DNA of 64,000 bases, from sequence record PZ166176.1. One strand, 5' to 3'. Below, piece after piece: positions 3,006 through 21,220 of the stretch. The stretch comes from a phage. The translations under genes and the position numbers were made by a program. How positions within the stretch are numbered: the first letter of the stretch is position 1; each line of letters opens with the position of its first letter. The notes beneath the pieces were generated by a model, which saw only the letters and a program-made list of their open reading frames with translations, searched no databases and was not told the DNA's origin.

Positions 3006-3080
3006 GGCCCTGTAGCTCAATGGGAGAGCTGTCGGCTCATAACCGATAGGTAGCTGGATCGAAACCAGCCAGGGCCACCA
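3006..3080 (+). tRNA. tRNA with anticodon CAT (Met, or Ile2 if lysidine-modified), CCA encoded
   Basis: Cloverleaf folded by hand: acceptor GGCCCTG/CAGGGCC, D-stem GCTC/GAGC, anticodon loop CTCATAA, T-stem GCTGG/CCAGC, discriminator A, CCA. Confidence 0.8.
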
Positions 3081-3082
3081 AC

Positions 3083-3157
3083 GTCTTTATGGTGTAATGG
3101 ATAGCACAGGAGTCTTCTAAACTCTTAGTCAAGGTTCGATTCCTTGTAAAGACACCA
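3083..3157 (+). tRNA. tRNA-Arg (anticodon TCT), CCA encoded
   Basis: Acceptor GTCTTTA/TAAAGAC, anticodon stem GGAGT/ACTCT with loop CTTCTAA, T-stem CAAGG/CCTTG with loop TTCGATT, discriminator A, CCA. Confidence 0.8.
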
Positions 3158-3353
3158 GAACATTTTAACATGAATTAGCTCAAGTGATTTGAACCCACTA
3201 CTGATCATGGTGGCAGAGAATGAGGCAAGTATGTCAGACATTATAAACAAAGGCCACGGTTATATTAGAAGACATAAATGCTCGAAGAGCACCGTTCGTT
3301 GAGAACGGGGGTTGGTGGAGTCACCATTCATGGTAAAATGTTTTAAAAAACTA

Positions 3354-3383
3354 TTGACAACTAACATTATTTTATGTTAGATT
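3354..3383 (+). promoter_or_regulatory. promoter-like site (-35 TTGACA, 18-nt spacer, -10 TAGATT) with palindrome TAACAT...ATGTTA
   Basis: Same actattgacaa motif as at 2767 and 4103; lies just upstream of tRNA-Ser. Confidence 0.4.
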
Positions 3384-3391
3384 ATAAGTAT

Positions 3392-3482
3392 GGAAGGGCA
3401 AATCGACGTGGCGACGAAAACGGTCTTGAAAACCGCCGAGCTTGAAAGAGCCTTGGGAGTTCGACTCTCCCTCCTTCCGCCA
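3392..3482 (+). tRNA. tRNA-Ser (anticodon TGA), long variable arm, CCA encoded
   Basis: Acceptor GGAAGGG/TCCTTCC, anticodon loop CTTGAAA, long variable arm, T-stem GGGAG/CTCCC with loop TTCGACT, discriminator G, CCA; the D-arm is irregular. Confidence 0.7.
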
Positions 3483-3486
3483 GATT

Positions 3487-3572
3487 GGTAGATTGGTGAA
3501 ATGGTAGCCACGACAGTTTGCTAAACTGTAGTCGGAAACGGCGTGTAGGTTCGAGTCCTACATCTACCGCCA
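3487..3572 (+). tRNA. tRNA-Ser (anticodon GCT), long variable arm, CCA encoded
   Basis: Acceptor GGTAGAT/ATCTACC, D-stem GTGA/CCAC (read as in the analysis), anticodon stem ACAGT/ACTGT with loop TTGCTAA, T-stem GTAGG/CCTAC, discriminator G, CCA. Confidence 0.8.
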
Positions 3573-3578
3573 AATTAA

Positions 3579-3664
3579 GATGAGTTGGCTGAATGGTTTA
3601 AGCGGCGGACTGTTAATCCGTGTTCGAAAGAACGATATAGGTTCAAATCCTATACTCATCGCCA
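3579..3664 (+). tRNA. atypical tRNA: serine-like body (long variable arm, discriminator G) with anticodon GTT (Asn codons), CCA encoded
   Basis: Acceptor GATGAGT/ACTCATC (perfect), anticodon stem GCGGA/TCCGT with loop CTGTTAA, variable arm hairpin GTTC-GAAA-GAAC, T-stem ATAGG/CCTAT with loop TTCAAAT, discriminator G, CCA. Isotype cannot be settled by eye. Confidence 0.55.
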
Positions 3665-3671
3665 GAATTAT

Positions 3672-3750
3672 GGACTTGTAGAGTTAAGGTAAACCCCCAG
3701 TCGCCAAGAGGCTTCTGGAATTGCAGGTATCGAATCCTGCCGAGTCCCAG
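3672..3750 (+). pseudogene. degenerate tRNA-like element (no CCA, 8-nt T-loop, no clean anticodon arm)
   Basis: Acceptor GGACTTG/CGAGTCC and T-stem GCAGG/CCTGC are recognisable, but the D and anticodon arms do not fold canonically and CCA is absent. Confidence 0.3.
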
Positions 3751-3754
3751 CTTT

Positions 3755-3829
3755 GCTCCTATAGTATAATGGCTATTACAACGGTTTTGTAATCCGTGGA
3801 TCTCTGTTCGATTCAGAGTGGGAGCACCA
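3755..3829 (+). tRNA. tRNA-Thr (anticodon TGT), CCA encoded
   Basis: Acceptor GCTCCTA/TGGGAGC, anticodon loop TTTGTAA with a U-U loop-closing mismatch, T-stem CTCTG/CAGAG with loop TTCGATT, discriminator A, CCA. Confidence 0.75.
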
Positions 3830-4102
3830 ACACAACATTAAGAGCACTGTGATTGATCGTCGTATCCTGTGCACAAGGTCTGCTCGAAAGACAGTGTTCT
3901 TAGTATTGTGTTGATCACAAAAAGAGTTACCTGAAACTTGACCGGAGTAGGGTTGGATGGGGCAAAAGAAGAAGCGGCTCTCCCATCGACAGCAACGAAG
4001 AATAATATTTGACTTTGGTTTTGTATTATTTTAAGTTAGCTTACCGAACGTAGGGCTAGTCACCCAATGGGATACTCGTCACTGTCCCGCTCAATAAAAC
4101 TA

Positions 4103-4132
4103 TTGACAACCAATAGTAAAATGTAGTATAGT
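4103..4132 (+). promoter_or_regulatory. sigma70-like promoter (-35 TTGACA, 18-nt spacer, -10 TATAGT) with inverted repeat ACTATTG...CAATAGT
   Basis: Good match in both hexamers; lies upstream of tRNA-Gly and restarts transcription inside the tRNA region. Confidence 0.55.
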
Positions 4133-4143
4133 AAAGATGTAGG

Positions 4144-4217
4144 GCGTTCTTGGTGTAGCGGTAGCATTCCGTCCTTCCAAGTCGGCGGCACGAGTTCGAT
4201 CCTCGTAGAACGCTCCA
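4144..4217 (+). tRNA. tRNA-Gly (anticodon TCC), CCA encoded
   Basis: Acceptor GCGTTCT/AGAACGC (perfect), anticodon loop CTTCCAA, T-stem ACGAG/CTCGT with loop TTCGATC, discriminator T, CCA. Confidence 0.75.
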
Positions 4218-4315
4218 AATTATTTAATAAAGGGTTGCCAGAAAACTTTCTCTTTTACTCATGGTTTTCTCCTTCTCTCACACCTCTTCTGGTTGCCCTT
4301 CATTAAATGATTTAT

Positions 4316-4391
4316 TGGTTTGTAGTGTAGTCCGGTAGCACACGACACTTTGACTGTCGTAGGTTTGGTTCAAATCCAGACAGACCAGCCA
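4316..4391 (+). tRNA. tRNA-Gln (anticodon TTG), CCA encoded
   Basis: Acceptor TGGTTTG/CAGACCA, D-stem GTGT/ACAC region, anticodon stem CGACA/TGTCG with loop CTTTGAC, T-stem TTTGG/CCAGA with loop TTCAAAT, discriminator G, CCA. Confidence 0.75.
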
Positions 4392-4396
4392 TATAA

Positions 4397-4473
4397 CGGA
4401 ATTTAGCTCAGTTTGGTAGAGCATACGCTTTGGGAGCGTAGGGTCGCAGGTTCGAATCCTGCAATTCCGACCA
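4397..4473 (+). tRNA. tRNA-Pro (anticodon TGG), CCA encoded
   Basis: Acceptor CGGAATT/AATTCCG (perfect), anticodon stem TACGC/GCGTA with loop TTTGGGA, T-stem GCAGG/CCTGC with loop TTCGAAT, discriminator A, CCA. Confidence 0.85.
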
Positions 4474-4479
4474 ATCAAA

Positions 4480-4553
4480 TGTTTCGTAGTTCAATGGTAG
4501 AACCCACGACTGATAATCGTGAGACACAAGTTCGATTCTTGTCGAAACAACCA
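4480..4553 (+). tRNA. tRNA-Ile (anticodon GAT), CCA encoded
   Basis: Acceptor TGTTTCG/CGAAACA, D-stem GTTC/GAAC, anticodon stem CACGA/TCGTG with loop CTGATAA, T-stem ACAAG/CTTGT with loop TTCGATT, discriminator A, CCA. Confidence 0.85.
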
Positions 4554-4555
4554 GT

Positions 4556-4625
4556 TTCCCGTTAGACTTACAGGATAAGAGTTCCACAGCTTATTGTGAT
4601 GTTGGTTCGAATCCAGCACGGGATA
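4556..4625 (+). pseudogene. degenerate tRNA-like element (no CCA, irregular anticodon arm)
   Basis: T-arm GTTGG-TTCGAAT-CCAGC and an acceptor pairing with a 1:72 mismatch are present, but the anticodon region gives only a 4-bp stem with a 6-nt loop and ACA replaces CCA. Confidence 0.3.
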
Positions 4626-4631
4626 CATAAT

Positions 4632-4710
4632 AGCGGGATAGAGGAGTCTGGTCGTCCTCGCCAGTTTCATATGCTGGAGATCATCGGTTCAAATCCGATT
4701 CCCGCCTCCA
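4632..4710 (+). tRNA. tRNA with anticodon CAT and an A1:C72 mismatch (second Met/Ile2-type tRNA), CCA encoded
   Basis: Acceptor AGCGGGA/TCCCGCC, D-stem GAGG/CCTC with an 11-nt loop, anticodon stem CCAGT/GCTGG with loop TTCATAT, T-stem ATCGG/CCGAT with loop TTCAAAT, discriminator T, CCA. Confidence 0.65.
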
Positions 4711-15024: not shown

Positions 15025-15655
15025 TATTTACCAACAAATAGAAGCATACGAAAATGCCATCTACTTAAATATAGGTGGCTTCCTTCAAGAATTAGTGGGG
15101 TTGCCAGTCTATGTTATGGATAAGCCATTCATTAAACCGGATACTCCTTACCTAGCACTACGTATTATCACTTCCAGCGATTCTGGAGGTTGGTCTTACC
15201 GAAGCTCTATTCAAAATGATATGTATTCCTACGAGATGGATAATACCTACGAGATTGAACTTGTAGCCTATCGTGGAAGACCTACCACTTTGATGAGCTA
15301 TGTTCTGGCTGCTCTCCGTGGTGCAGAGGAATTAAAATACAAACATCTCTATTCTAAAGGTCTTGGTTTTTTAGGAGCCTCCAATATAGCTCAAGCCAAT
15401 ACAATTGTAGACGGAGATAAGACTGAATTAAGAGCGCGTATGGTTATGACGTTCAACACTCGTATGAGTATTGAAGATATTGCTACTACACCAATAGAAG
15501 CAATCAACATGCACATCCGTTCATTCAGAGATAGTTACAATGATCCTATCCCTTTAGATTTAATTCTAAACAGGATTTATGCAATTACTTTGGTTCCAGG
15601 CGAATACTCGTCAGTCAATCAAAATGGATCATTATTTAACAACCCTACCGAATAA
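14996..15655 (+). CDS. hypothetical tail-associated protein (219 aa)
   Basis: ORF; GAAGGAGG RBS suggests the in-frame TTG at 15017 may be the true start. Confidence 0.45.
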   Translation: MEQKEETLANIYQQIEAYENAIYLNIGGFLQELVGLPVYVMDKPFIKPDTPYLALRIITSSDSGGWSYRSSIQNDMYSYEMDNTYEIELVAYRGRPTTLMSYVLAALRGAEELKYKHLYSKGLGFLGASNIAQANTIVDGDKTELRARMVMTFNTRMSIEDIATTPIEAINMHIRSFRDSYNDPIPLDLILNRIYAITLVPGEYSSVNQNGSLFNNPTE

Positions 15656-15689
15656 ACTCATTGGAATTAAGTTTCTAACAGGAGCATAA

Positions 15690-17063
15690 ATGGCAACTTT
15701 TCGTGAAAAGGTAGCAACCGTAACTTTACTGTATGGTGCTACATCAATTCGTGAAACCCAGTTCGATATTCCCCTGATCCTTACAGGTCAGAACGTAACT
15801 GGCGAAGCGATTCAATATTACTCTTCTTCCGATGCACTTTTGGAAGCAGGTTATGGATTAAATGATCCAGCGTATATTATGGCAGTCAAACTGTTTAACG
15901 GTTTGTTCCCACCAGATCAAGTTATGGTTGGTAAGCGTGAAGTTACAAACTTTACTCTAACTCCAATCGTAGAAGATAGTGCAACTTACACAATTACCAT
16001 CAAAAATGGTACCAAGAAAAAAGAATTTAAATTCATTGCTGATGACACTGCAACTGCACAAGAGATTGTAGTTGGTCTGACTGAAATGATCAATGCAGAT
16101 CTCGTTTATGGCCCACTGTTTACAGTAGCTAACAACGGCGCCGCAATGACTTTCACTCCAGTAGAAGGTAAGTTTGGTTCTATTGACAGCACAGGTTTCA
16201 CTCAAGAAACTGTCTATGCTAATGCTATTACGGAAGATATTGCTGCTCTGCATGATATTGATAGTAGCTGGTTCTGGACCCTTTCAGATTCCCATGAAAC
16301 AGAAGATGTTCTAGCTTTGGCTGCATGGGTAGAAGAGAATGATAAAGTTTACTTCTTCTCTAGCTCTGAACCTGGAATTAAAACGAAAGCAGAAGATAAC
16401 GTTCTGGAACGACTGAATGACCTCGGTTATAATAACACTTGCTTTGCTTTGTGGATGACCGATGCAGATTCTGTATTCCCAGAAGCAGCAGTTGTTGGTG
16501 CAATCTGTTCTCGTCAACCTGGTTTAACTACTCTTCACGGTAAAACACTGGTAGGCGTAGAGATCGAGAAACTGGATCAGACTTCGGAAAATAATATTGT
16601 TCAACAGAACGGTAACATCTATCGTAAAGAGCATGGAACTCTGTTCTATCGTGATGGATTGATGGTTAGCGGTTTCTTTGTTGATTATGTTGTTCATGCT
16701 TTGTGGTTTAAAGCTCGCACAGAAGAATCACTGTTTACACTGTTTAAACAACAGTCTATGCTGGGTGGCGGTGTTCGTGCTACTTCAAACGGTCTGGCTT
16801 TGATTCGACAAGCTGTTCTGGCTAACCCGATCCAAGTAGGTATCCTCAACGGTTCCATCGCTAATGAAGTTGTTACTTCTGAAGAGACTGGTTTGCGTGT
16901 CGATCTGAAACCTATTGTTTATATTCCTTCTCGTGCCGATATGACTGATGCGCAAATCAATGCTCGTCTGGTCGATGGGATGAAGATTGAATATGTTTAC
17001 GCTGGCTTCTTCCATTACGTTAAAGTTCAGGTCAACGTCCTGACTAACCGTACTGCAAACTAA
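15690..17063 (+). CDS. putative tail sheath protein (457 aa)
   Basis: Large gene followed by a 159-aa gene, two chaperone ORFs and the tape measure; high-expression codon usage; called by synteny only. Confidence 0.5.
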   Translation: MATFREKVATVTLLYGATSIRETQFDIPLILTGQNVTGEAIQYYSSSDALLEAGYGLNDPAYIMAVKLFNGLFPPDQVMVGKREVTNFTLTPIVEDSATYTITIKNGTKKKEFKFIADDTATAQEIVVGLTEMINADLVYGPLFTVANNGAAMTFTPVEGKFGSIDSTGFTQETVYANAITEDIAALHDIDSSWFWTLSDSHETEDVLALAAWVEENDKVYFFSSSEPGIKTKAEDNVLERLNDLGYNNTCFALWMTDADSVFPEAAVVGAICSRQPGLTTLHGKTLVGVEIEKLDQTSENNIVQQNGNIYRKEHGTLFYRDGLMVSGFFVDYVVHALWFKARTEESLFTLFKQQSMLGGGVRATSNGLALIRQAVLANPIQVGILNGSIANEVVTSEETGLRVDLKPIVYIPSRADMTDAQINARLVDGMKIEYVYAGFFHYVKVQVNVLTNRTAN

Positions 17064-17065
17064 TA

Positions 17066-17090
17066 CGGCGGGGGTTAAGCCCCCGTTATC
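17066..17090 (+). terminator. hairpin CGGGGG-TTAA-GCCCCCG after the sheath gene (weak T-run; attenuator-like)
   Basis: GC-rich stem-loop read directly; only a short U tract follows. Confidence 0.4.
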
Positions 17091-17109
17091 AAAATAAAGA
17101 GGATCTATA

Positions 17110-17589
17110 ATGGATAAAATGCTTACTGGCGTAATGGCCTACGACCCATCTCAAGTTATCCTTTCATTAGGTGGTTGGGAACCGTGGGGTTTTGCGGCTG
17201 ATACTAAAATCGTTATTGCTAAATCTAACGATATTATCAACCCTTATTCAGGGACTGATGGCGACGTTTCTCTAGCTTTGAGTCGTAACCGTTTGGGAAC
17301 ACTCACAATGTCTTTGCAACGCACATCTCCAGCTAACGAAGTACTTGCAACATATGCACAAACAATGTATTCTACTCGTCAAGTAGCGTTCAGTGTTTAC
17401 TTGGAAGACCCACGTGGCTATTACATTAGCACGATTGGATGGATTCAAAGTCAGCCTGAAGATACTATTGGTGAAATGATTACAGAGAACCAATGGGTTA
17501 TTGGTCTTAAAGATGCAAGCCTTCTGCGTAATGAAGTTGGTGTAGGTTTGAGCACCCTTAACTCAATCTCTGCTCTGACAATTCAATAA
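17110..17589 (+). CDS. putative tail tube protein (159 aa)
   Basis: Position after the sheath gene, size, strong terminator downstream; called by synteny. Confidence 0.5.
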   Translation: MDKMLTGVMAYDPSQVILSLGGWEPWGFAADTKIVIAKSNDIINPYSGTDGDVSLALSRNRLGTLTMSLQRTSPANEVLATYAQTMYSTRQVAFSVYLEDPRGYYISTIGWIQSQPEDTIGEMITENQWVIGLKDASLLRNEVGVGLSTLNSISALTIQ

Positions 17590-17594
17590 TAAAT

Positions 17595-17616
17595 AAAGGG
17601 CAGAAATGCCCTTTTT
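17595..17616 (+). terminator. rho-independent terminator after the tube gene
   Basis: Hairpin AAAGGGCA-GAAA-TGCCCTTT followed by TTTTT. Confidence 0.75.
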
Positions 17617-17634
17617 ATCATTAGAGAGGAAAAT

Positions 17635-18117
17635 ATGTCACAAGAACAAGATAACACAATTCAAAAATATGCTCGACCAGAAGAAGTAGTTGAGATTCCG
17701 TTAGATGGAAACAGATCTGTTACTTTCCGTATTATGAAGTGGAGTCCATCTAAAGTGTTTGACAGGATTCCAGAATTGGGTAGTGTTCTGGTTGTTCCTA
17801 TGACTATGTATAGCACAGCAACAATGTCCGCAGACGAAGACCTTGAGTCACGTATTGCTATGGCACTGATCCAACTTTTTTCAGGTTTGGAAGAAAAGAA
17901 TTTAACTGTCTTTTTGCGTAAAATTTTAGATGAGGTTTATACCCAAGACGGTTATAACGTTGCAGAAAATTTTGATGAATTATTTATGGCTCACCCAGAA
18001 CTAGTGTTAGATCTTACTGCTAAAGTTCTGGAGGTAAACTACGGCCCTTTTTTCAAACGAGGTTTCGGAAAACTGTTCACACAGCTTCAGGCGATGACGA
18101 GTTTAGCAGCAAATTAA
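17635..18117 (+). CDS. tail assembly chaperone (G-like, 160 aa)
   Basis: Located directly before the tape measure gene; contains a slippery heptamer near its 3' end and an overlapping -1 frame ORF. Confidence 0.5.
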   Translation: MSQEQDNTIQKYARPEEVVEIPLDGNRSVTFRIMKWSPSKVFDRIPELGSVLVVPMTMYSTATMSADEDLESRIAMALIQLFSGLEEKNLTVFLRKILDEVYTQDGYNVAENFDELFMAHPELVLDLTAKVLEVNYGPFFKRGFGKLFTQLQAMTSLAAN

Positions 18118-18383
18118 CACCTGCGATTGAACATGCTATCGACACAGCAACGAAAACCCTTACTTTGAAGTGGTATGAGGTTATTCTTTGCAAAGTCGTT
18201 AAAGATACCTCGGAAACACTGAAAACATTAGATAACTACGGTGTAGATTATCTTTTAAAACTATATGAGTATTTAACATACGAAGAGTATGTTGAAGCCA
18301 TGTATGTTAAAGACACTTCAATAAAGAGAAAACATCAAAACCAGACAAATAAAATGTCAGATTTGTTTAAGAAACTTGTTTAA
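18048..18383 (+). CDS. -1 frameshift extension of the tail assembly chaperone (GT-like fusion product)
   Basis: Heptamer T TTT TTC at 18048-18054 in the zero frame of 17635-18117; the -1 frame is open from 18024 to 18383 (track ORF 18165-18383 is in this frame). Confidence 0.45.
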   Translation, partial: FFQTRFRKTVHTASGDDEFSSKLTPAIEHAIDTATKTLTLKWYEVILCKVVKDTSETLKTLDNYGVDYLLKLYEYLTYEEYVEAMYVKDTSIKRKHQNQTNKMSDLFKKLV

Positions 18384-18403
18384 TCCAACACGAGGAACAT
18401 ACT

Positions 18404-20392
18404 TTGTTAGAAATTAACGCCTCCAAAATTAGTAACGTGGTTACGTTTAAGGTGGACAAGAACAGTCTCAAGGAAGCAAAAGATGCCGTGTTGAGTGTTC
18501 AGAAGTTTGCAAATAAAATGCAACCCACTATGAACATGACCAAGTTTAGACAACAAATGAAAGAGATTGAGCGTGAACTTAAGAAAGCTCAAACTCAAAG
18601 TCAAAAGCCTATGCGAGCACCTACTCCCGCTGGAGCGGGTGCTCCTGTAGGTGGTTCTGGTAGACCTAGAACTCCTAAAACGCCGCAAGGAAGAGAAGAA
18701 GAAAAAGCTCGTAAAGCTGCTGAACGCGAAGCTAAAGCAGCAGCACGTAGGGAAGACTTAGGTAATCTTCGTTTGCAGAACTTTAACTACCGAGCAAGAG
18801 CATTTAGTAAAGCAAGCCCTGGTGCTATGCAAGAAGCTAGAGACGTTATGGGTAAAGCCGTAGAGCAATACAAAAAGGGTGAAATAACTCTTCAACGTAT
18901 GAACCAAGCTCTTGCTCACCAGTTAGATGCTTTACGCAGATCTCATCGTGAAAAGAATGCTGAAATAGAAGACGAGGTTCGAGGTCGTCGCCGTATTCGT
19001 AGAGAGCTAGAAGCAGAAGCTAAAATGCGTATACGTATGCGAAATCGTGAACTTAGAGATATAGAACGCAACCGTAAGCGTGAATTAGCTCAACAGAAAC
19101 GTGATCGTGATCGTCGATATGGACAATTAAAAGAAGGTGCAGCAGGTCTTAATCCACGCATGATTGCATCCTCTTTGATTGGTGCTGGGCTGTTTGCAGG
19201 TGGTTCTGTAGTTGGTAACACGTTGATGAATACTAACGAAAGAATTAAACTTGTAAGCCGTGGTGCTGAAAACGTTCAGACAAACGCCAACGCTATTTTG
19301 GCAATGACAGCTTGGGGTGAACAGAACGGTGTAGACTCTGCAAATATTATTAAATCAATAGATAATATTAAAGACGTTCGTGAACGTCTTGGTAATACAG
19401 TTTTAGCTGCAAAGTGGAATGAGAAAGAAGGGAAGTGGAAAGGCGGTGATAATGGCATAACTGACATTATGAACTTGTTTGGATGGAATCCAGAACAGCT
19501 TAAACCTTTACAGAACGATCCTTTAGCTTTTATTCAGGCTACTGTTAATGAAGGTGAGCGTCGAGGTATGAACTCTGCTCAAATCGGGCGACTTCTTGAA
19601 AACCTTGGTGATGACCTTATGCACTACCAACGTATGTTTAGTAAAAACGGCGAAGGGTATAATGAAGTATTGAAGATGCTTCAAAGAACAGGTGCAACAT
19701 TAACTCAAGAACAAATAGATGCTTCTAAAGAGTTTACTCGTTTTGCTGCAACAGTTCAGCTTGTAGGTCAAGGTATGCAGAACCATTTCTTAGAAGGTTT
19801 TGTAAAAGCTTTACCTAAAGATGATTCTTGGTTGGATAACGTTAAAGTGCTAGATCAGTTCGCCAAAGATTTAGGTGAAGAACTCGGTAAGACAACAGTT
19901 CAATTAGGAGGTTTTGCTAAAGAATTGGGAGATGGTTTCGGATCTTTTACCAATTGGCTTAAAGAAACATTCCCAGATACATTCGGAGACAACACAGATC
20001 CTAATAAATCTATAGCACAAAAAGCATACGAGGCAACGCAAAGTGGAGACAGCAATCCTGTAGCAGATTGGTTGTACAATTTAACAGGTATTGATACACA
20101 AGATATTGGTCGTATGTGGAGAGGAGAACAAACAAGAACACGTGCTTTTGGATTTGGTAATCCTCTTGAAGATTTACGTGAATCAGCCTATACACCTAAC
20201 GTAAGTTTGGCTCGTAATCAACCTGTTGTTGAGAATACGGTAGCAATACCAAGTGATCTTATCAAAGTTACGATCAGCCCTTCTTCAGAGTTTGGAAATA
20301 TTCTTGATGCAAGAATTCAAAATAGCGGAAATAGCATTTTCCAACGTTTGTCTCTTTCAACTCTAAGTGGACAATCTAACACTGGTGGTTAA
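18404..20392 (+). CDS. tail tape measure protein (662 aa)
   Basis: TTG start after GAGGAACA; Arg/Lys/Glu-rich coiled-coil middle region; position after the chaperone pair. Confidence 0.65.
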   Translation: MLEINASKISNVVTFKVDKNSLKEAKDAVLSVQKFANKMQPTMNMTKFRQQMKEIERELKKAQTQSQKPMRAPTPAGAGAPVGGSGRPRTPKTPQGREEEKARKAAEREAKAAARREDLGNLRLQNFNYRARAFSKASPGAMQEARDVMGKAVEQYKKGEITLQRMNQALAHQLDALRRSHREKNAEIEDEVRGRRRIRRELEAEAKMRIRMRNRELRDIERNRKRELAQQKRDRDRRYGQLKEGAAGLNPRMIASSLIGAGLFAGGSVVGNTLMNTNERIKLVSRGAENVQTNANAILAMTAWGEQNGVDSANIIKSIDNIKDVRERLGNTVLAAKWNEKEGKWKGGDNGITDIMNLFGWNPEQLKPLQNDPLAFIQATVNEGERRGMNSAQIGRLLENLGDDLMHYQRMFSKNGEGYNEVLKMLQRTGATLTQEQIDASKEFTRFAATVQLVGQGMQNHFLEGFVKALPKDDSWLDNVKVLDQFAKDLGEELGKTTVQLGGFAKELGDGFGSFTNWLKETFPDTFGDNTDPNKSIAQKAYEATQSGDSNPVADWLYNLTGIDTQDIGRMWRGEQTRTRAFGFGNPLEDLRESAYTPNVSLARNQPVVENTVAIPSDLIKVTISPSSEFGNILDARIQNSGNSIFQRLSLSTLSGQSNTGG

Positions 20393-20399
20393 TAAAATA

Positions 20400-20422
20400 C
20401 CTCGCTTCGGCGGGGTTTTTTC
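20400..20422 (+). terminator. rho-independent terminator (CCTCGC-TTCG-GCGGGG plus TTTTTT)
   Basis: UUCG tetraloop hairpin followed by a T-run directly after the tape measure stop. Confidence 0.8.
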
Positions 20423-20429
20423 GTTTCCC

Positions 20430-20459
20430 TTGACACGAAGTTTCTATATGTGTTACAAT
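20430..20459 (+). promoter_or_regulatory. sigma70-like promoter (-35 TTGACA, 18-nt spacer, -10 TACAAT) for the baseplate genes
   Basis: Consensus hexamers immediately after the terminator. Confidence 0.55.
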
Positions 20460-20518
20460 AATCAATATGGGAAGATCTTGCATCTTCCTTTTGGCATTAT
20501 CATTACTACGAGGTTATC

Positions 20519-21220
20519 ATGGCAGCAATGACTCCACAACAGTCGGTGAGAGCCGTCTATAAGGCAGAACAGGAAATCAACTCTACCGAGAATAAAAATA
20601 CCTCGGCATCTACTGTAAAAGGTGATAATGGTTTCTGCATTTTAGCAAGTGTTTATAATAGTTCAAGTGATCAATACATTCAAAACTTTAAAGCAATTAC
20701 TTTCGATTCAGTCCCTGAAATAGGTGTAACTCGTGAGGCAGATGTTACAAGTTTTCCAGTAGAATCAGGATCAGATGTAAGTGACCACGTTCAAATAAAA
20801 AACAACAGATTTAAACTTTCAGGTATAATTACCGAAACACCAATTCGGCTTATGCGAGATCAATTATACAGTGCAGGTGTAAATGGAGCAAGGATTTCTC
20901 AAGCAATAGAATACCTAGATCAAATATTTGAGTCAAGACAACCAATAGTTCTTTTGACAGAACATAGAACTTTTGAAAATGTTATTCTCAAAGGTTATTC
21001 CTATGATTATAAATCTGAATTTGCTATGCAATTTGATTTAGAGTTTGAACAAATCCGTCTTGTTTCTAAGGCCACTACTAACGCTATTGCTGTAAAAACA
21101 GCACCAAATAAGTCAACTGGTGGTGATGTGAAAGGTCAAGTTGCTTCGAATGGTCCTAAGTCAGATATTACAGTAAGAACTGCTGAAGCTACTAATACCC
21201 CAACAAACAACGGAGGTTAA
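20519..21220 (+). CDS. tail / baseplate structural protein (233 aa)
   Basis: ORF in the post-tape-measure baseplate block. Confidence 0.45.
   Translation: MAAMTPQQSVRAVYKAEQEINSTENKNTSASTVKGDNGFCILASVYNSSSDQYIQNFKAITFDSVPEIGVTREADVTSFPVESGSDVSDHVQIKNNRFKLSGIITETPIRLMRDQLYSAGVNGARISQAIEYLDQIFESRQPIVLLTEHRTFENVILKGYSYDYKSEFAMQFDLEFEQIRLVSKATTNAIAVKTAPNKSTGGDVKGQVASNGPKSDITVRTAEATNTPTNNGG

What the first reader, a model, noticed from the sequence alone, without database searches (positions are those of the whole stretch)
18024..18117. Programmed -1 frameshift site in the tail assembly chaperone (T TTT TTC heptamer)
Near the 3' end of the chaperone gene, the heptamer T TTT TTC (18048-18054) lies in the zero frame, and the -1 frame is open from 18024 to 18383. 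This is the conserved G/GT chaperone arrangement upstream of tape measure genes and supports the tail-gene assignments.
Basis: partly seen in the sequence, partly recalled or inferred. Interest (0 to 1): 0.4.

Follow-up and report, generated by a model that had tools for sequence, protein, structure and literature searches.

The report
Tail chaperone −1 frameshift site, confirmed
The slippery T TTT TTC site is real and strictly conserved, so this E. coli phage almost certainly makes a short and a long tail-assembly chaperone from one gene by the classic lambda G/GT frameshift; this is an ordinary mechanism that the database records inspected leave unannotated for this phage group.

Summary
The window is a phAPEC8-like myophage (Phapecoctavirus, about 99% identical to phages SKA64 and tuntematon).

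- **Gene order.** Sheath, tube, tail assembly chaperone (TAC, 17635-18117, Pfam PF21822), then tape measure (18404-20392).
- **Slippery site.** T TTT TTC (18048-18054) is in the zero frame. The -1 frame is open from 18024 to 18383. A shift gives a 249-aa long form beside the 160-aa short form.
- **Not chance.** Of 80 in-frame slippery heptamers in the window, only this site opens a long -1 frame: 109 codons, against 29 for the next best.
- **Conserved.** The heptamer and a 206-278 nt -1 extension occur in all 12 GenBank relatives, down to 23% protein identity, and in 39 of 39 metagenomic relatives.
- **Read in the -1 frame.** Codon-position variability switches to the -1 frame immediately after the TAC stop, upstream of any start codon. 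Two relatives have no -1-frame start for about 250 nt.
- **No RNA stimulator.** No downstream hairpin or pseudoknot exists. An upstream GGAGG is only partly conserved.

No inspected or sampled record joins the two frames. A 2025 paper reports the same arrangement in sister families. Verdict: a new, unannotated member of a well-known kind, of low to moderate interest.

The parts
17635..18117 (+). Tail assembly chaperone, short form (G-like, 160 aa), zero frame
   Evidence: ORF. PF21822 Phage_TAC_15 at 3e-23 and phrog_3840 'tail assembly chaperone' at 2.5e-50. Annotated as a tail assembly chaperone in SKA64, tuntematon and phAPEC8. The AF2 model matches annotated phage chaperones in BFVD.
18048..18054 (+). 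Slippery heptamer T TTT TTC (X XXY YYZ, zero-frame register), the proposed -1 shift site
   Evidence: Invariant in 12 of 12 GenBank relatives and 39 of 39 IMG/VR loci. U_UU.U_UU.C belongs to the efficient H_HH.U_UU.Y class in E. coli (PMC4066793).
18045..18051 (+). Overlapping second in-register heptamer C CCT TTT, found only in Stephanstirmvirinae. A slip here gives the identical protein.
   Evidence: Absent from Vequintavirinae, which have TGT or AGT before the T-run.
18024..18117 (+). Overlap window in which the shift must occur, between the last -1-frame stop and the zero-frame stop
   Evidence: The two heptamers are the only XXXYYYZ motifs in register within it.
18054..18383 (+). -1 frame extension (T-like part, 109 codons plus the stop), comprising a conserved RFRK motif, a variable linker and a conserved C-terminal domain
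   Evidence: phrog_16039 (5e-44) and phrog_10409. Codon periodicity in the -1 frame starts right after the G stop. 100% identical over its whole length in most sampled Phapecoctavirus records.
18030..18034 (+). GGAGG, a Shine-Dalgarno-like sequence 13 nt upstream of the heptamer and a possible 5' stimulator
   Evidence: GGAG or GAGG is present at this position in about 25 of 35 distinct relatives, so it is not universal. It also encodes the conserved L-E-V.
18165..18383 (+). 72-aa TTG-initiated ORF that some records call a separate hypothetical gene (phAPEC8 gp105). Interpreted here as the 3' part of the long chaperone form, not a gene of its own.
   Evidence: No SD sequence lies upstream (gcaacgaaaacccttact). 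The start is not conserved.
18404..20392 (+). Tape measure protein gene (662 aa, TTG start), the presumed client of the chaperone
   Evidence: phrog_16051 at E=0. Annotated as the tape measure protein.
17110..17589 (+). Tail tube gene immediately upstream (context)
   Evidence: phrog_280 and PF11681. Annotated as tail tube.
15690..17063 (+). Tail sheath gene (context)
   Evidence: phrog_205 at 2.9e-100 and DUF3383.

Best explanation
[quoted passage not shown] Most ribosomes read 17635-18117 and release the 160-aa short chaperone. A minority slip back one base while tRNA-Phe occupies the P site (UUU, 18049-51) and the A site (UUC, 18052-54). Both tRNAs re-pair with UUU and UUU, and the next codon read is CAA at 18054. 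Translation continues in the -1 frame to the TAA at 18381-83. The product is a 249-aa long form made of 140 shared residues and 109 new ones, with the junction ...VNYGPFF|QTRFRK.... By analogy with lambda, the shared N-domain would coat the tape measure protein and the extension would recruit tail tube subunits, with the ratio of the two forms set by the slip frequency. What is shown: the site, its register, the open frame, its conservation, and coding constraint in the -1 frame across the junction. What is inferred: that slippage occurs on the ribosome, its efficiency, and the roles of the two domains.
For: 1. The heptamer is in register and the -1 frame is open for 109 codons.
2. This is unique among the 80 in-register heptamers of the window.
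3. The gene is a TAC family member located between the tube and tape measure genes. The AF2 model (pLDDT 74) matches annotated phage chaperones in BFVD, including Moogle's 'tape measure chaperone', which is published as frameshifted.
4. TTTTTTC is invariant and in register in 12 of 12 GenBank relatives with 23-82% protein identity (phi92-, rV5-, Hena1-, Av-05-, SSE121-, CR3-like and ChuuTotoro). Each has a -1 extension of 251-278 nt. It is also present in 39 of 39 IMG/VR loci.
5. The codon before the T-run varies (CCT, TGT or AGT, giving P, C or S) but always ends in T. The Phe codons are always TTT then TTC, although the window uses TTT and TTC at 441:321.
6. Positional entropy shows the zero-frame third position varying up to codon 132 and no variation at all at codons 139-144. 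Right after the G stop, variability moves to the third position of the -1 frame, already at codons 163-174, upstream of the TTG at 18165.
7. -1-frame start codons are not conserved and are absent for 243-255 nt in two relatives.
8. In rV5-like phages a C>A change turns zero-frame GFG into GLG but keeps -1-frame RFR (CGG>AGG).
9. The U_UU.U_UU.C class is frameshift-prone in E. coli and is used by IS elements (PMC4066793).
10. The same arrangement, with a poly-T motif, has been reported for the sister families Vandenendeviridae and Andersonviridae (PMC12846349).
Against: No protein-level evidence is available, because chaperones are not virion components and no mass-spectrometry or reporter data were found. 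No downstream stimulatory structure exists: fold z-scores range from -0.5 to +1.0 and RNAalifold predicts 0 pairs. Efficiency may therefore be low, and no stimulator has been identified. None of the annotated records inspected joins the two frames, and all 43 database homologues are short-form only. The relatives are phylogenetically non-independent. One of the two patterns used for the IMG/VR scan contained the FF motif at the amino-acid level.
Confidence: 0.88

Rival explanations
1. Transcriptional slippage instead of, or in addition to, ribosomal slippage. RNA polymerase would add one extra U at the U6 run, and normal translation of the U7 transcripts would give exactly the same 249-aa protein.
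For: The conserved element is a homopolymer run. No RNA structure of the kind that usually boosts ribosomal frameshifting is present. [quoted passage not shown]
Against: Productive bacterial transcriptional slippage is described for runs of about 9 A or T (PMC5009743), and this run has only 6. The run length and its reading-frame register are strictly fixed (always N-T TTT TTC). Ribosomal tandem slippage requires that, whereas polymerase slippage would not need the register. U_UU.U_UU.C is an experimentally frameshift-prone heptamer in E. coli.
Confidence: 0.07
2. Two separate genes. The -1 ORF would be translated independently from TTG 18165 as a 72-aa protein, as annotated for phAPEC8 gp105 and phi92 gp133, and the heptamer would be a by-product of a conserved Phe-Phe.
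For: Several GenBank records call it a separate hypothetical gene. PHROG family phrog_16039 is a 72-aa family.
Against: No Shine-Dalgarno sequence lies before the TTG. Candidate start positions range from 90 to 255 nt past the heptamer among relatives. Two relatives have none before the middle of the conserved domain. The region upstream of the TTG shows -1-frame codon periodicity and conserved residues. The codon-level invariance of T TTT TTC goes beyond what Phe-Phe requires.
Confidence: 0.04
3. A chance co-occurrence with no function: a slippery-looking heptamer next to an accidentally open frame.
For: In-register heptamers are common, with 80 in this window.
Against: No other heptamer opens more than 29 codons. 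The arrangement is conserved in every relative examined. The extension has its own conserved protein families.
Confidence: 0.01

Closest known systems
Phage lambda gpG/gpGT tail assembly chaperones (Levin et al. 1993; Xu, Hendrix and Duda 2004, 2013, 2014; reviewed in PMC5009743)
   Same: Two overlapping ORFs lie directly upstream of the tape measure gene. [quoted passage not shown] Neither form is expected in virions. No elaborate RNA stimulator is needed.
   Different: The heptamer is T TTT TTC (tRNA-Phe/tRNA-Phe) rather than G GGA AAG. The host phage is a 150-kb contractile-tailed myovirus. There is no detectable sequence similarity to lambda G or T; the Pfam family is PF21822. Here the product and the ratio are inferred, whereas in lambda they were measured (about 30:1).
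Phage P2 E / E+E' tail chaperone frameshift (own knowledge; P2 efficiency noted in PMC5009743)
   Same: It is a myovirus. The chaperone pair sits between the tube gene and the tape measure gene, and the -1 shift occurs on a run of six T.
   Different: I recall the P2 site as T TTT TTG, but I did not verify this here. The proteins are not detectably homologous.
TAC-N/TAC-NC -1 frameshift proposed for Vandenendeviridae (Pseudomonas phage Adele) and Andersonviridae (Moogle) (PMC12846349; PMC4319497)
   Same: These are sister clades of the same large-myovirus supergroup. They share the locus layout, a conserved poly-T motif (GTTTTT) near the 3' end of TAC-N, an uninterrupted -1 frame, and a downstream piece routinely mis-annotated as a hypothetical gene. 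Moogle's chaperone is a structural match to the model made here.
   Different: That paper did not analyse Stephanstirmvirinae or Vequintavirinae at this locus. Here the full seven-base X XXY YYZ motif is invariant, and Stephanstirmvirinae carry an extra overlapping C CCT TTT.
E. coli dnaX and IS3/IS911-type -1 frameshifting
   Same: Tandem slippage on an X XXY YYZ heptamer. In this window an SD-like GGAGG lies 13 nt upstream, within the spacing range that stimulates the dnaX shift (own knowledge).
   Different: No 3' hairpin or pseudoknot is present. The SD-like element is not conserved in all relatives. The expected efficiency is far below the roughly 50% of dnaX.

Membership tests
G/GT-type tail assembly chaperone with programmed -1 frameshift | Located between the major tail (tube) gene and the tape measure gene, on the same strand | tested here: met
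   Sheath 15690-17063, tube 17110-17589, TAC 17635-18117 and TMP 18404-20392.
G/GT-type tail assembly chaperone with programmed -1 frameshift | The upstream ORF belongs to a recognised TAC protein family | tested here: met
   PF21822 at 83 bits against a cut-off of 22. phrog_3840, phrog_1613, phrog_1688 and phrog_11820 are all 'tail assembly chaperone'. BFVD fold matches to annotated TACs reach E=8.9e-7.
G/GT-type tail assembly chaperone with programmed -1 frameshift | Fold similarity to experimentally solved TAC structures | tested here: inconclusive
   [not shown]
G/GT-type tail assembly chaperone with programmed -1 frameshift | X XXY YYZ slippery heptamer in zero-frame register inside the overlap of the two ORFs | tested here: met
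   T TTT TTC at 18048-18054 and C CCT TTT at 18045-18051. They are the only such motifs between the -1 opening (18024) and the zero-frame stop.
G/GT-type tail assembly chaperone with programmed -1 frameshift | The -1 ORF extends well beyond the zero-frame stop and lacks a conserved start or RBS of its own | tested here: met
   The extension is 266 nt. Starts are inconsistent or absent, and there is no SD sequence.
G/GT-type tail assembly chaperone with programmed -1 frameshift | The arrangement and the shift site are conserved among diverged relatives | tested here: met
   12 of 12 GenBank loci and 39 of 39 IMG/VR loci. The -1-frame codon periodicity crosses the junction.
G/GT-type tail assembly chaperone with programmed -1 frameshift | The fusion protein is actually synthesised at a low fixed ratio and is required for tail assembly | not testable with these tools
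   No proteomic or reporter data were found in the literature searches.
Structure-stimulated -1 PRF (dnaX / IS3 / coronavirus type) | Stable hairpin or pseudoknot 5-9 nt downstream of the heptamer | tested here: not met
   The MFE is no better than shuffles in the window and in 5 relatives. There are 0 consensus pairs in 12 sequences. Rfam gave no hit.
Structure-stimulated -1 PRF (dnaX / IS3 / coronavirus type) | Shine-Dalgarno-like sequence 10-14 nt upstream of the heptamer | tested here: inconclusive
   GGAGG at 18030-34 lies 13 nt upstream. GGAG or GAGG is present in about 25 of 35 distinct relatives despite a genome-wide GAA preference of 821:307, but it is absent in the rest and is confounded with the coding of L-E-V.
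Programmed transcriptional slippage | Long homopolymer run (typically about 9 A/T in bacteria), with heterogeneous transcripts | tested here: not met
   The run is 6 T and its length is invariant. The threshold comes from PMC5009743. Transcript heterogeneity cannot be tested here.

The most novel reading that the evidence does not exclude
The shift may be driven without any RNA secondary structure, by a signal not yet characterised. Candidates are the invariant block around the heptamer (AACUAYGGnn-UUUUUUC-...GGUUU), the nascent NYGxFF peptide, and the upstream SD-like pairing. Alternatively, the long form may arise from RNA polymerase slippage on a run of only six U. Either way, this would be a mechanistically distinct way of setting the chaperone ratio, fixed across at least two, and perhaps four, families of large myoviruses.
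Probability: 0.12. Interest if true: 0.45.

Novelty: new member of a known kind. Interest (0 to 1): 0.25.

Why it matters
**Annotation.** None of the annotated records I inspected joins the two frames. These were the 16 regions, plus the feature names of two 60-record samples. The 3' part is either left as an apparent 287-nt gap or called a separate 72-82-aa hypothetical protein. Marking the slippage would correct one gene model across the Phapecoctavirus, Justusliebigvirus and Vequintavirinae records (359 records matched). It would also retire families such as phrog_16039 as stand-alone proteins.

**Biology.** The finding confirms the tail-gene assignments. It extends the known conservation of the poly-T chaperone shift site from Vandenendeviridae and Andersonviridae to two further subfamilies, which suggests a very old, frozen recoding signal. 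These phages are widely used as therapy candidates, and a correct tail-assembly gene model matters for engineering them. It does not change what is understood about frameshifting.

Tried and rejected
- **Downstream stimulatory structure.** I folded 60, 90 and 125 nt of the window and 60 nt of five relatives. All z-scores fell between -0.5 and +1.0, no better than shuffles. RNAalifold on 12 aligned relatives gave 0 pairs. Small hairpins 1-3 nt after the heptamer (AAAC-GAG-GUUU; CGAAA-GACGG-UUUCG in Vequintavirinae) start too close to the site to act as canonical stimulators and are not conserved in all lineages.
- **Rfam.** An E-value scan of 17500-18500 returned only two sub-threshold sRNA matches at the tube terminator.
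- **PDB sequence search of the fusion protein.** No hits.
- **Single-sequence AF2 of the 249-aa fusion.** pLDDT was 52, which is unusable.
- **Foldseek against the PDB for the short form.** Nothing significant.
- **Literature.** I found no paper reporting the frameshift for phAPEC8, phi92, rV5, Phapecoctavirus or Vequintavirinae. Searching for 'TTTTTTC' was uninformative. Vladimirov et al. 2022 is not held in the library.
- **Protein database.** I looked for an already-fused or already-annotated long form. All 43 homologues are about 160 aa.
- **Upstream nucleotide signal.** The invariant AACTACGG is not a nucleotide-level signal. Synonymous variants (AAT, TAT) occur, so it is explained by the conserved N-Y-G residues.

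Full report
**What the window is.** Megablast of 15600-20500 against GenBank phages found 64 records covering at least 80% of the query. The best are about 99% identical: Escherichia phages SKA64, PNJ1809-36, tuntematon, nieznany and others, all Phapecoctavirus in Stephanstirmvirinae. The local gene order on the + strand is:
- tail sheath, 15690-17063 (phrog_205, 2.9e-100);
- tail tube, 17110-17589;
- a 160-aa ORF, 17635-18117;
- a 662-aa tape measure protein, 18404-20392 (phrog_16051);
- a Dit-like protein, 20519-21220.

The 160-aa ORF matches Pfam PF21822 (Phage_TAC_15, 83 bits against a cut-off of 22) and phrog_3840 'tail assembly chaperone'. RefSeq records annotate it that way.

**Checking the observation.** The sequence reads ...GAG GTA AAC TAC GGC CCT TTT TTC AAA CGA... 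in the frame of the 17635 start. T TTT TTC at 18048-18054 is therefore in X XXY YYZ register.
- The -1 frame has a TAA at 18021-23 and then no stop until the TAA at 18381-83.
- The finding's interval, 18024-18117, is exactly the overlap in which a shift must happen.
A slip on either heptamer yields the same protein, ...VNYGPFF|QTRFRK....
- The long form would be 249 aa, made of 140 shared and 109 new residues. The short form is 160 aa.

**Is it more than chance?** I called 67 putative genes in the window and found 80 in-register XXXYYYZ heptamers. The -1 frame after them is open for a median of 6 codons and at most 29. The exceptions are the two heptamers in this gene, at 109 and 110 codons. 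They are also the only ones whose -1 frame runs past the zero-frame stop, by 266 nt.

**Comparative evidence.** A tblastn search with the conceptual fusion found 359 phage records. In relatives down to 31% identity the match came as two pieces in two frames.

I fetched 12 diverse loci: phiWec188, a phi92-like phage, Klebsiella 05F01, rV5_ev168, Hena1, a Klebsiella Mydovirus relative, Av-05, SSE121, DU_PP_IV, A73, ChuuTotoro and SKA64. Their chaperones are 23-82% identical to the window's.
- In all of them TTTTTTC is in register inside the overlap.
- The -1 frame closes only 9-36 nt upstream of the heptamer and extends 251-278 nt past the chaperone stop.
- The +1 frame is closed.

A scan of IMG/VR with a chaperone alignment gave 39 loci, 32 of them distinct, and all 39 have the same arrangement. 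One caveat applies: one of the two peptide patterns used for that scan included the Phe-Phe at the amino-acid level.

Across 35 distinct sequence contexts the codon before the run is CCT, TGT or AGT (Pro, Cys or Ser). It always ends in T, and the Phe codons are always TTT then TTC. The window's genes use TTT and TTC at 441:321. The conservation is therefore at the nucleotide level, beyond what the protein requires.

**Evidence that the -1 frame is read through the junction.** An alignment of the conceptual long forms shows four segments:
- a conserved NYGxFF;
- then, in the -1 frame, a conserved RFR(K/R);
- then a variable, Gly/Ser-rich linker, longer in Vequintavirinae;
- then a conserved C-terminal domain (...SSLxWxDYL...EYLD...).

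In rV5-like phages a C>A change turns the zero-frame GFG into GLG but is synonymous in the -1 frame (CGG>AGG, Arg).

I computed positional entropy over 12 distinct Stephanstirmvirinae loci:
- The zero-frame third position is the variable one through codon 132.
- Codons 139-144, which cover the heptamer plus KRGF, do not vary at any position.
- From codon 163, immediately after the chaperone stop, the variable position becomes the third position of the -1 frame.
- That switch lies upstream of the TTG at 18165, which some annotators use as the start of a separate gene.

The window has no ATG, GTG or TTG in the -1 frame between 18024 and 18165, and no Shine-Dalgarno sequence precedes the TTG. Among relatives the first -1 start lies anywhere from 90 to 255 nt after the heptamer. 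In Hena1 and the Klebsiella Mydovirus relative it falls in the middle of the conserved domain.

**Stimulatory elements.** The proposed check for a hairpin or pseudoknot was negative.
- Minimum free energies downstream of the site are no better than dinucleotide shuffles in the window (z = +0.67, -0.25 and +0.28). The five relatives tested ranged from z = -0.49 to +1.04.
- RNAalifold on 12 aligned relatives predicts no pairs at all.
- Rfam has no match.
- Upstream, GGAGG at 18030-34 lies 13 nt before the heptamer. From my own knowledge of the dnaX literature, that spacing is in the stimulatory range.
- GGAG or GAGG is found there in about 25 of 35 distinct relatives, even though the genome prefers GAA to GAG by 821:307. 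It is missing in the rest and overlaps the conserved Leu-Glu-Val codons.
- I rate it a possible, lineage-specific enhancer and not a defining part of the signal.

Sharma et al. 2014 (PMC4066793) place H_HH.U_UU.Y heptamers among the most efficient in E. coli. That class includes both U_UU.U_UU.C and C_CC.U_UU.U. Both exceed 0.1% without any stimulator, and U_UU.U_UU.C is used by IS elements. A low, unstimulated rate would fit what a chaperone pair needs. For comparison, the lambda G:GT ratio is about 30:1, and P2's frameshift efficiency is 2-3-fold higher (PMC5009743).

**Structure.** An AF2 model of the short form, built from 20 sequences, has mean pLDDT 74. It is confident for residues 11-140 and poor after residue 140, so the shift site sits at the end of the folded domain.
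- It matches predicted structures of annotated chaperones in BFVD: Rheinheimera phage (8.9e-7), Pseudomonas POR1, Burkholderia Maja and Citrobacter Moogle. Moogle's chaperone is published as frameshifted (PMC4319497).
- Matches to solved structures are not significant by Foldseek; HK97 2ob9 scores E=1.4.
- Fold membership relative to solved chaperones is therefore inconclusive, while sequence-family membership is clear.

**How it most likely works.** Tandem -1 slippage would occur with tRNA-Phe in the P site (UUU to UUU) and in the A site (UUC to UUU). E. coli has a single tRNA-Phe (anticodon GAA) that reads both codons; this is established knowledge. In Stephanstirmvirinae the slip could instead happen one codon earlier, with tRNA-Pro (CCU to CCC) and tRNA-Phe. 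Translation then continues to 18383.

By analogy with lambda (PMC5009743), the shared N-domain would bind the tape measure protein encoded 21 nt downstream, and the extension would recruit tube subunits. These roles are inferred.

I cannot exclude transcriptional slippage on the U6 run, which would give the same protein. It is disfavoured because the run is short compared with the runs of about 9 described for bacteria, and because the frame register is strictly kept.

**Comparison with what is known, and novelty.** This is the canonical arrangement of Xu, Hendrix and Duda (2004).
- None of the 16 annotated record regions I inspected joins the frames.
- None of the feature-name lists from two 60-record samples shows a second chaperone entry.
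- phAPEC8 RefSeq lists gp106 as the chaperone and a separate 72-aa gp105.
- All 43 homologues in the 5.8-billion-protein collection are the short form.
- I found no paper describing the frameshift for Phapecoctavirus, phi92 or rV5-like phages.
- A December 2025 paper proposes the same thing, with a conserved GTTTTT motif, for the sister families Vandenendeviridae and Andersonviridae (PMC12846349).

The finding is thus a new, unannotated member of a well-known kind. It is useful for annotation and mildly interesting for the depth of conservation of the poly-T site, but it would not surprise a specialist.

Noticed in passing
window 17595-17614: A terminator-like hairpin (AAAGGGCAGAAATGCCCTTT followed by a T-run) lies between the tail tube gene and the chaperone gene. 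The same site is annotated as a terminator in phAPEC8 and in the phi92-like phage PATM. It may lower expression of the chaperone and tape measure genes relative to the tube gene.
   Followed up: partly
window 3006-4710: A cluster of 10 tRNA genes: Met, Arg(tct), Ser(gct), Asn, Thr(tgt), Gly(tcc), Gln(ttg), Pro(tgg), Ile(gat) and Met. There is no tRNA-Phe. The phage tRNA-Pro(UGG) could decode the CCU of the alternative C CCU UUU slip site.
   Followed up: no
GenBank records (e.g. MG065650.1, MG065656.1, OP562383.1, MH252123.1): Records labelled as Campylobacter, Acinetobacter and Klebsiella phages carry this locus at 99-100% identity to E. coli Phapecoctavirus or Justusliebigvirus phages. The host labels of those records look doubtful.
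   Followed up: no
L054 (OY978784.1 57782-59353): In Klebsiella phage vB_Kpn_K18PH07C1 every CDS over the tube, chaperone and tape-measure region is annotated on the opposite strand, and most are flagged as partial or pseudo. This looks like an annotation artefact in that record.
   Followed up: no
[not shown]
   Followed up: no
window 18385-18406: The tape measure gene starts with TTG (18404), preceded by GAGGA at 18391-95, only 21 nt after the stop of the -1 extension. The long chaperone form therefore ends immediately before its presumed client gene begins.
   Followed up: partly
window 18055-18117 and relatives: The 20-residue tail specific to the short form (KRGFGKLFTQLQAMTSLAAN) keeps a conserved G-F/L-G motif across both subfamilies, although the model predicts it to be disordered. 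The short form's own C-terminus may therefore have a function, and the 60-nt overlap is constrained in both frames.
   Followed up: partly
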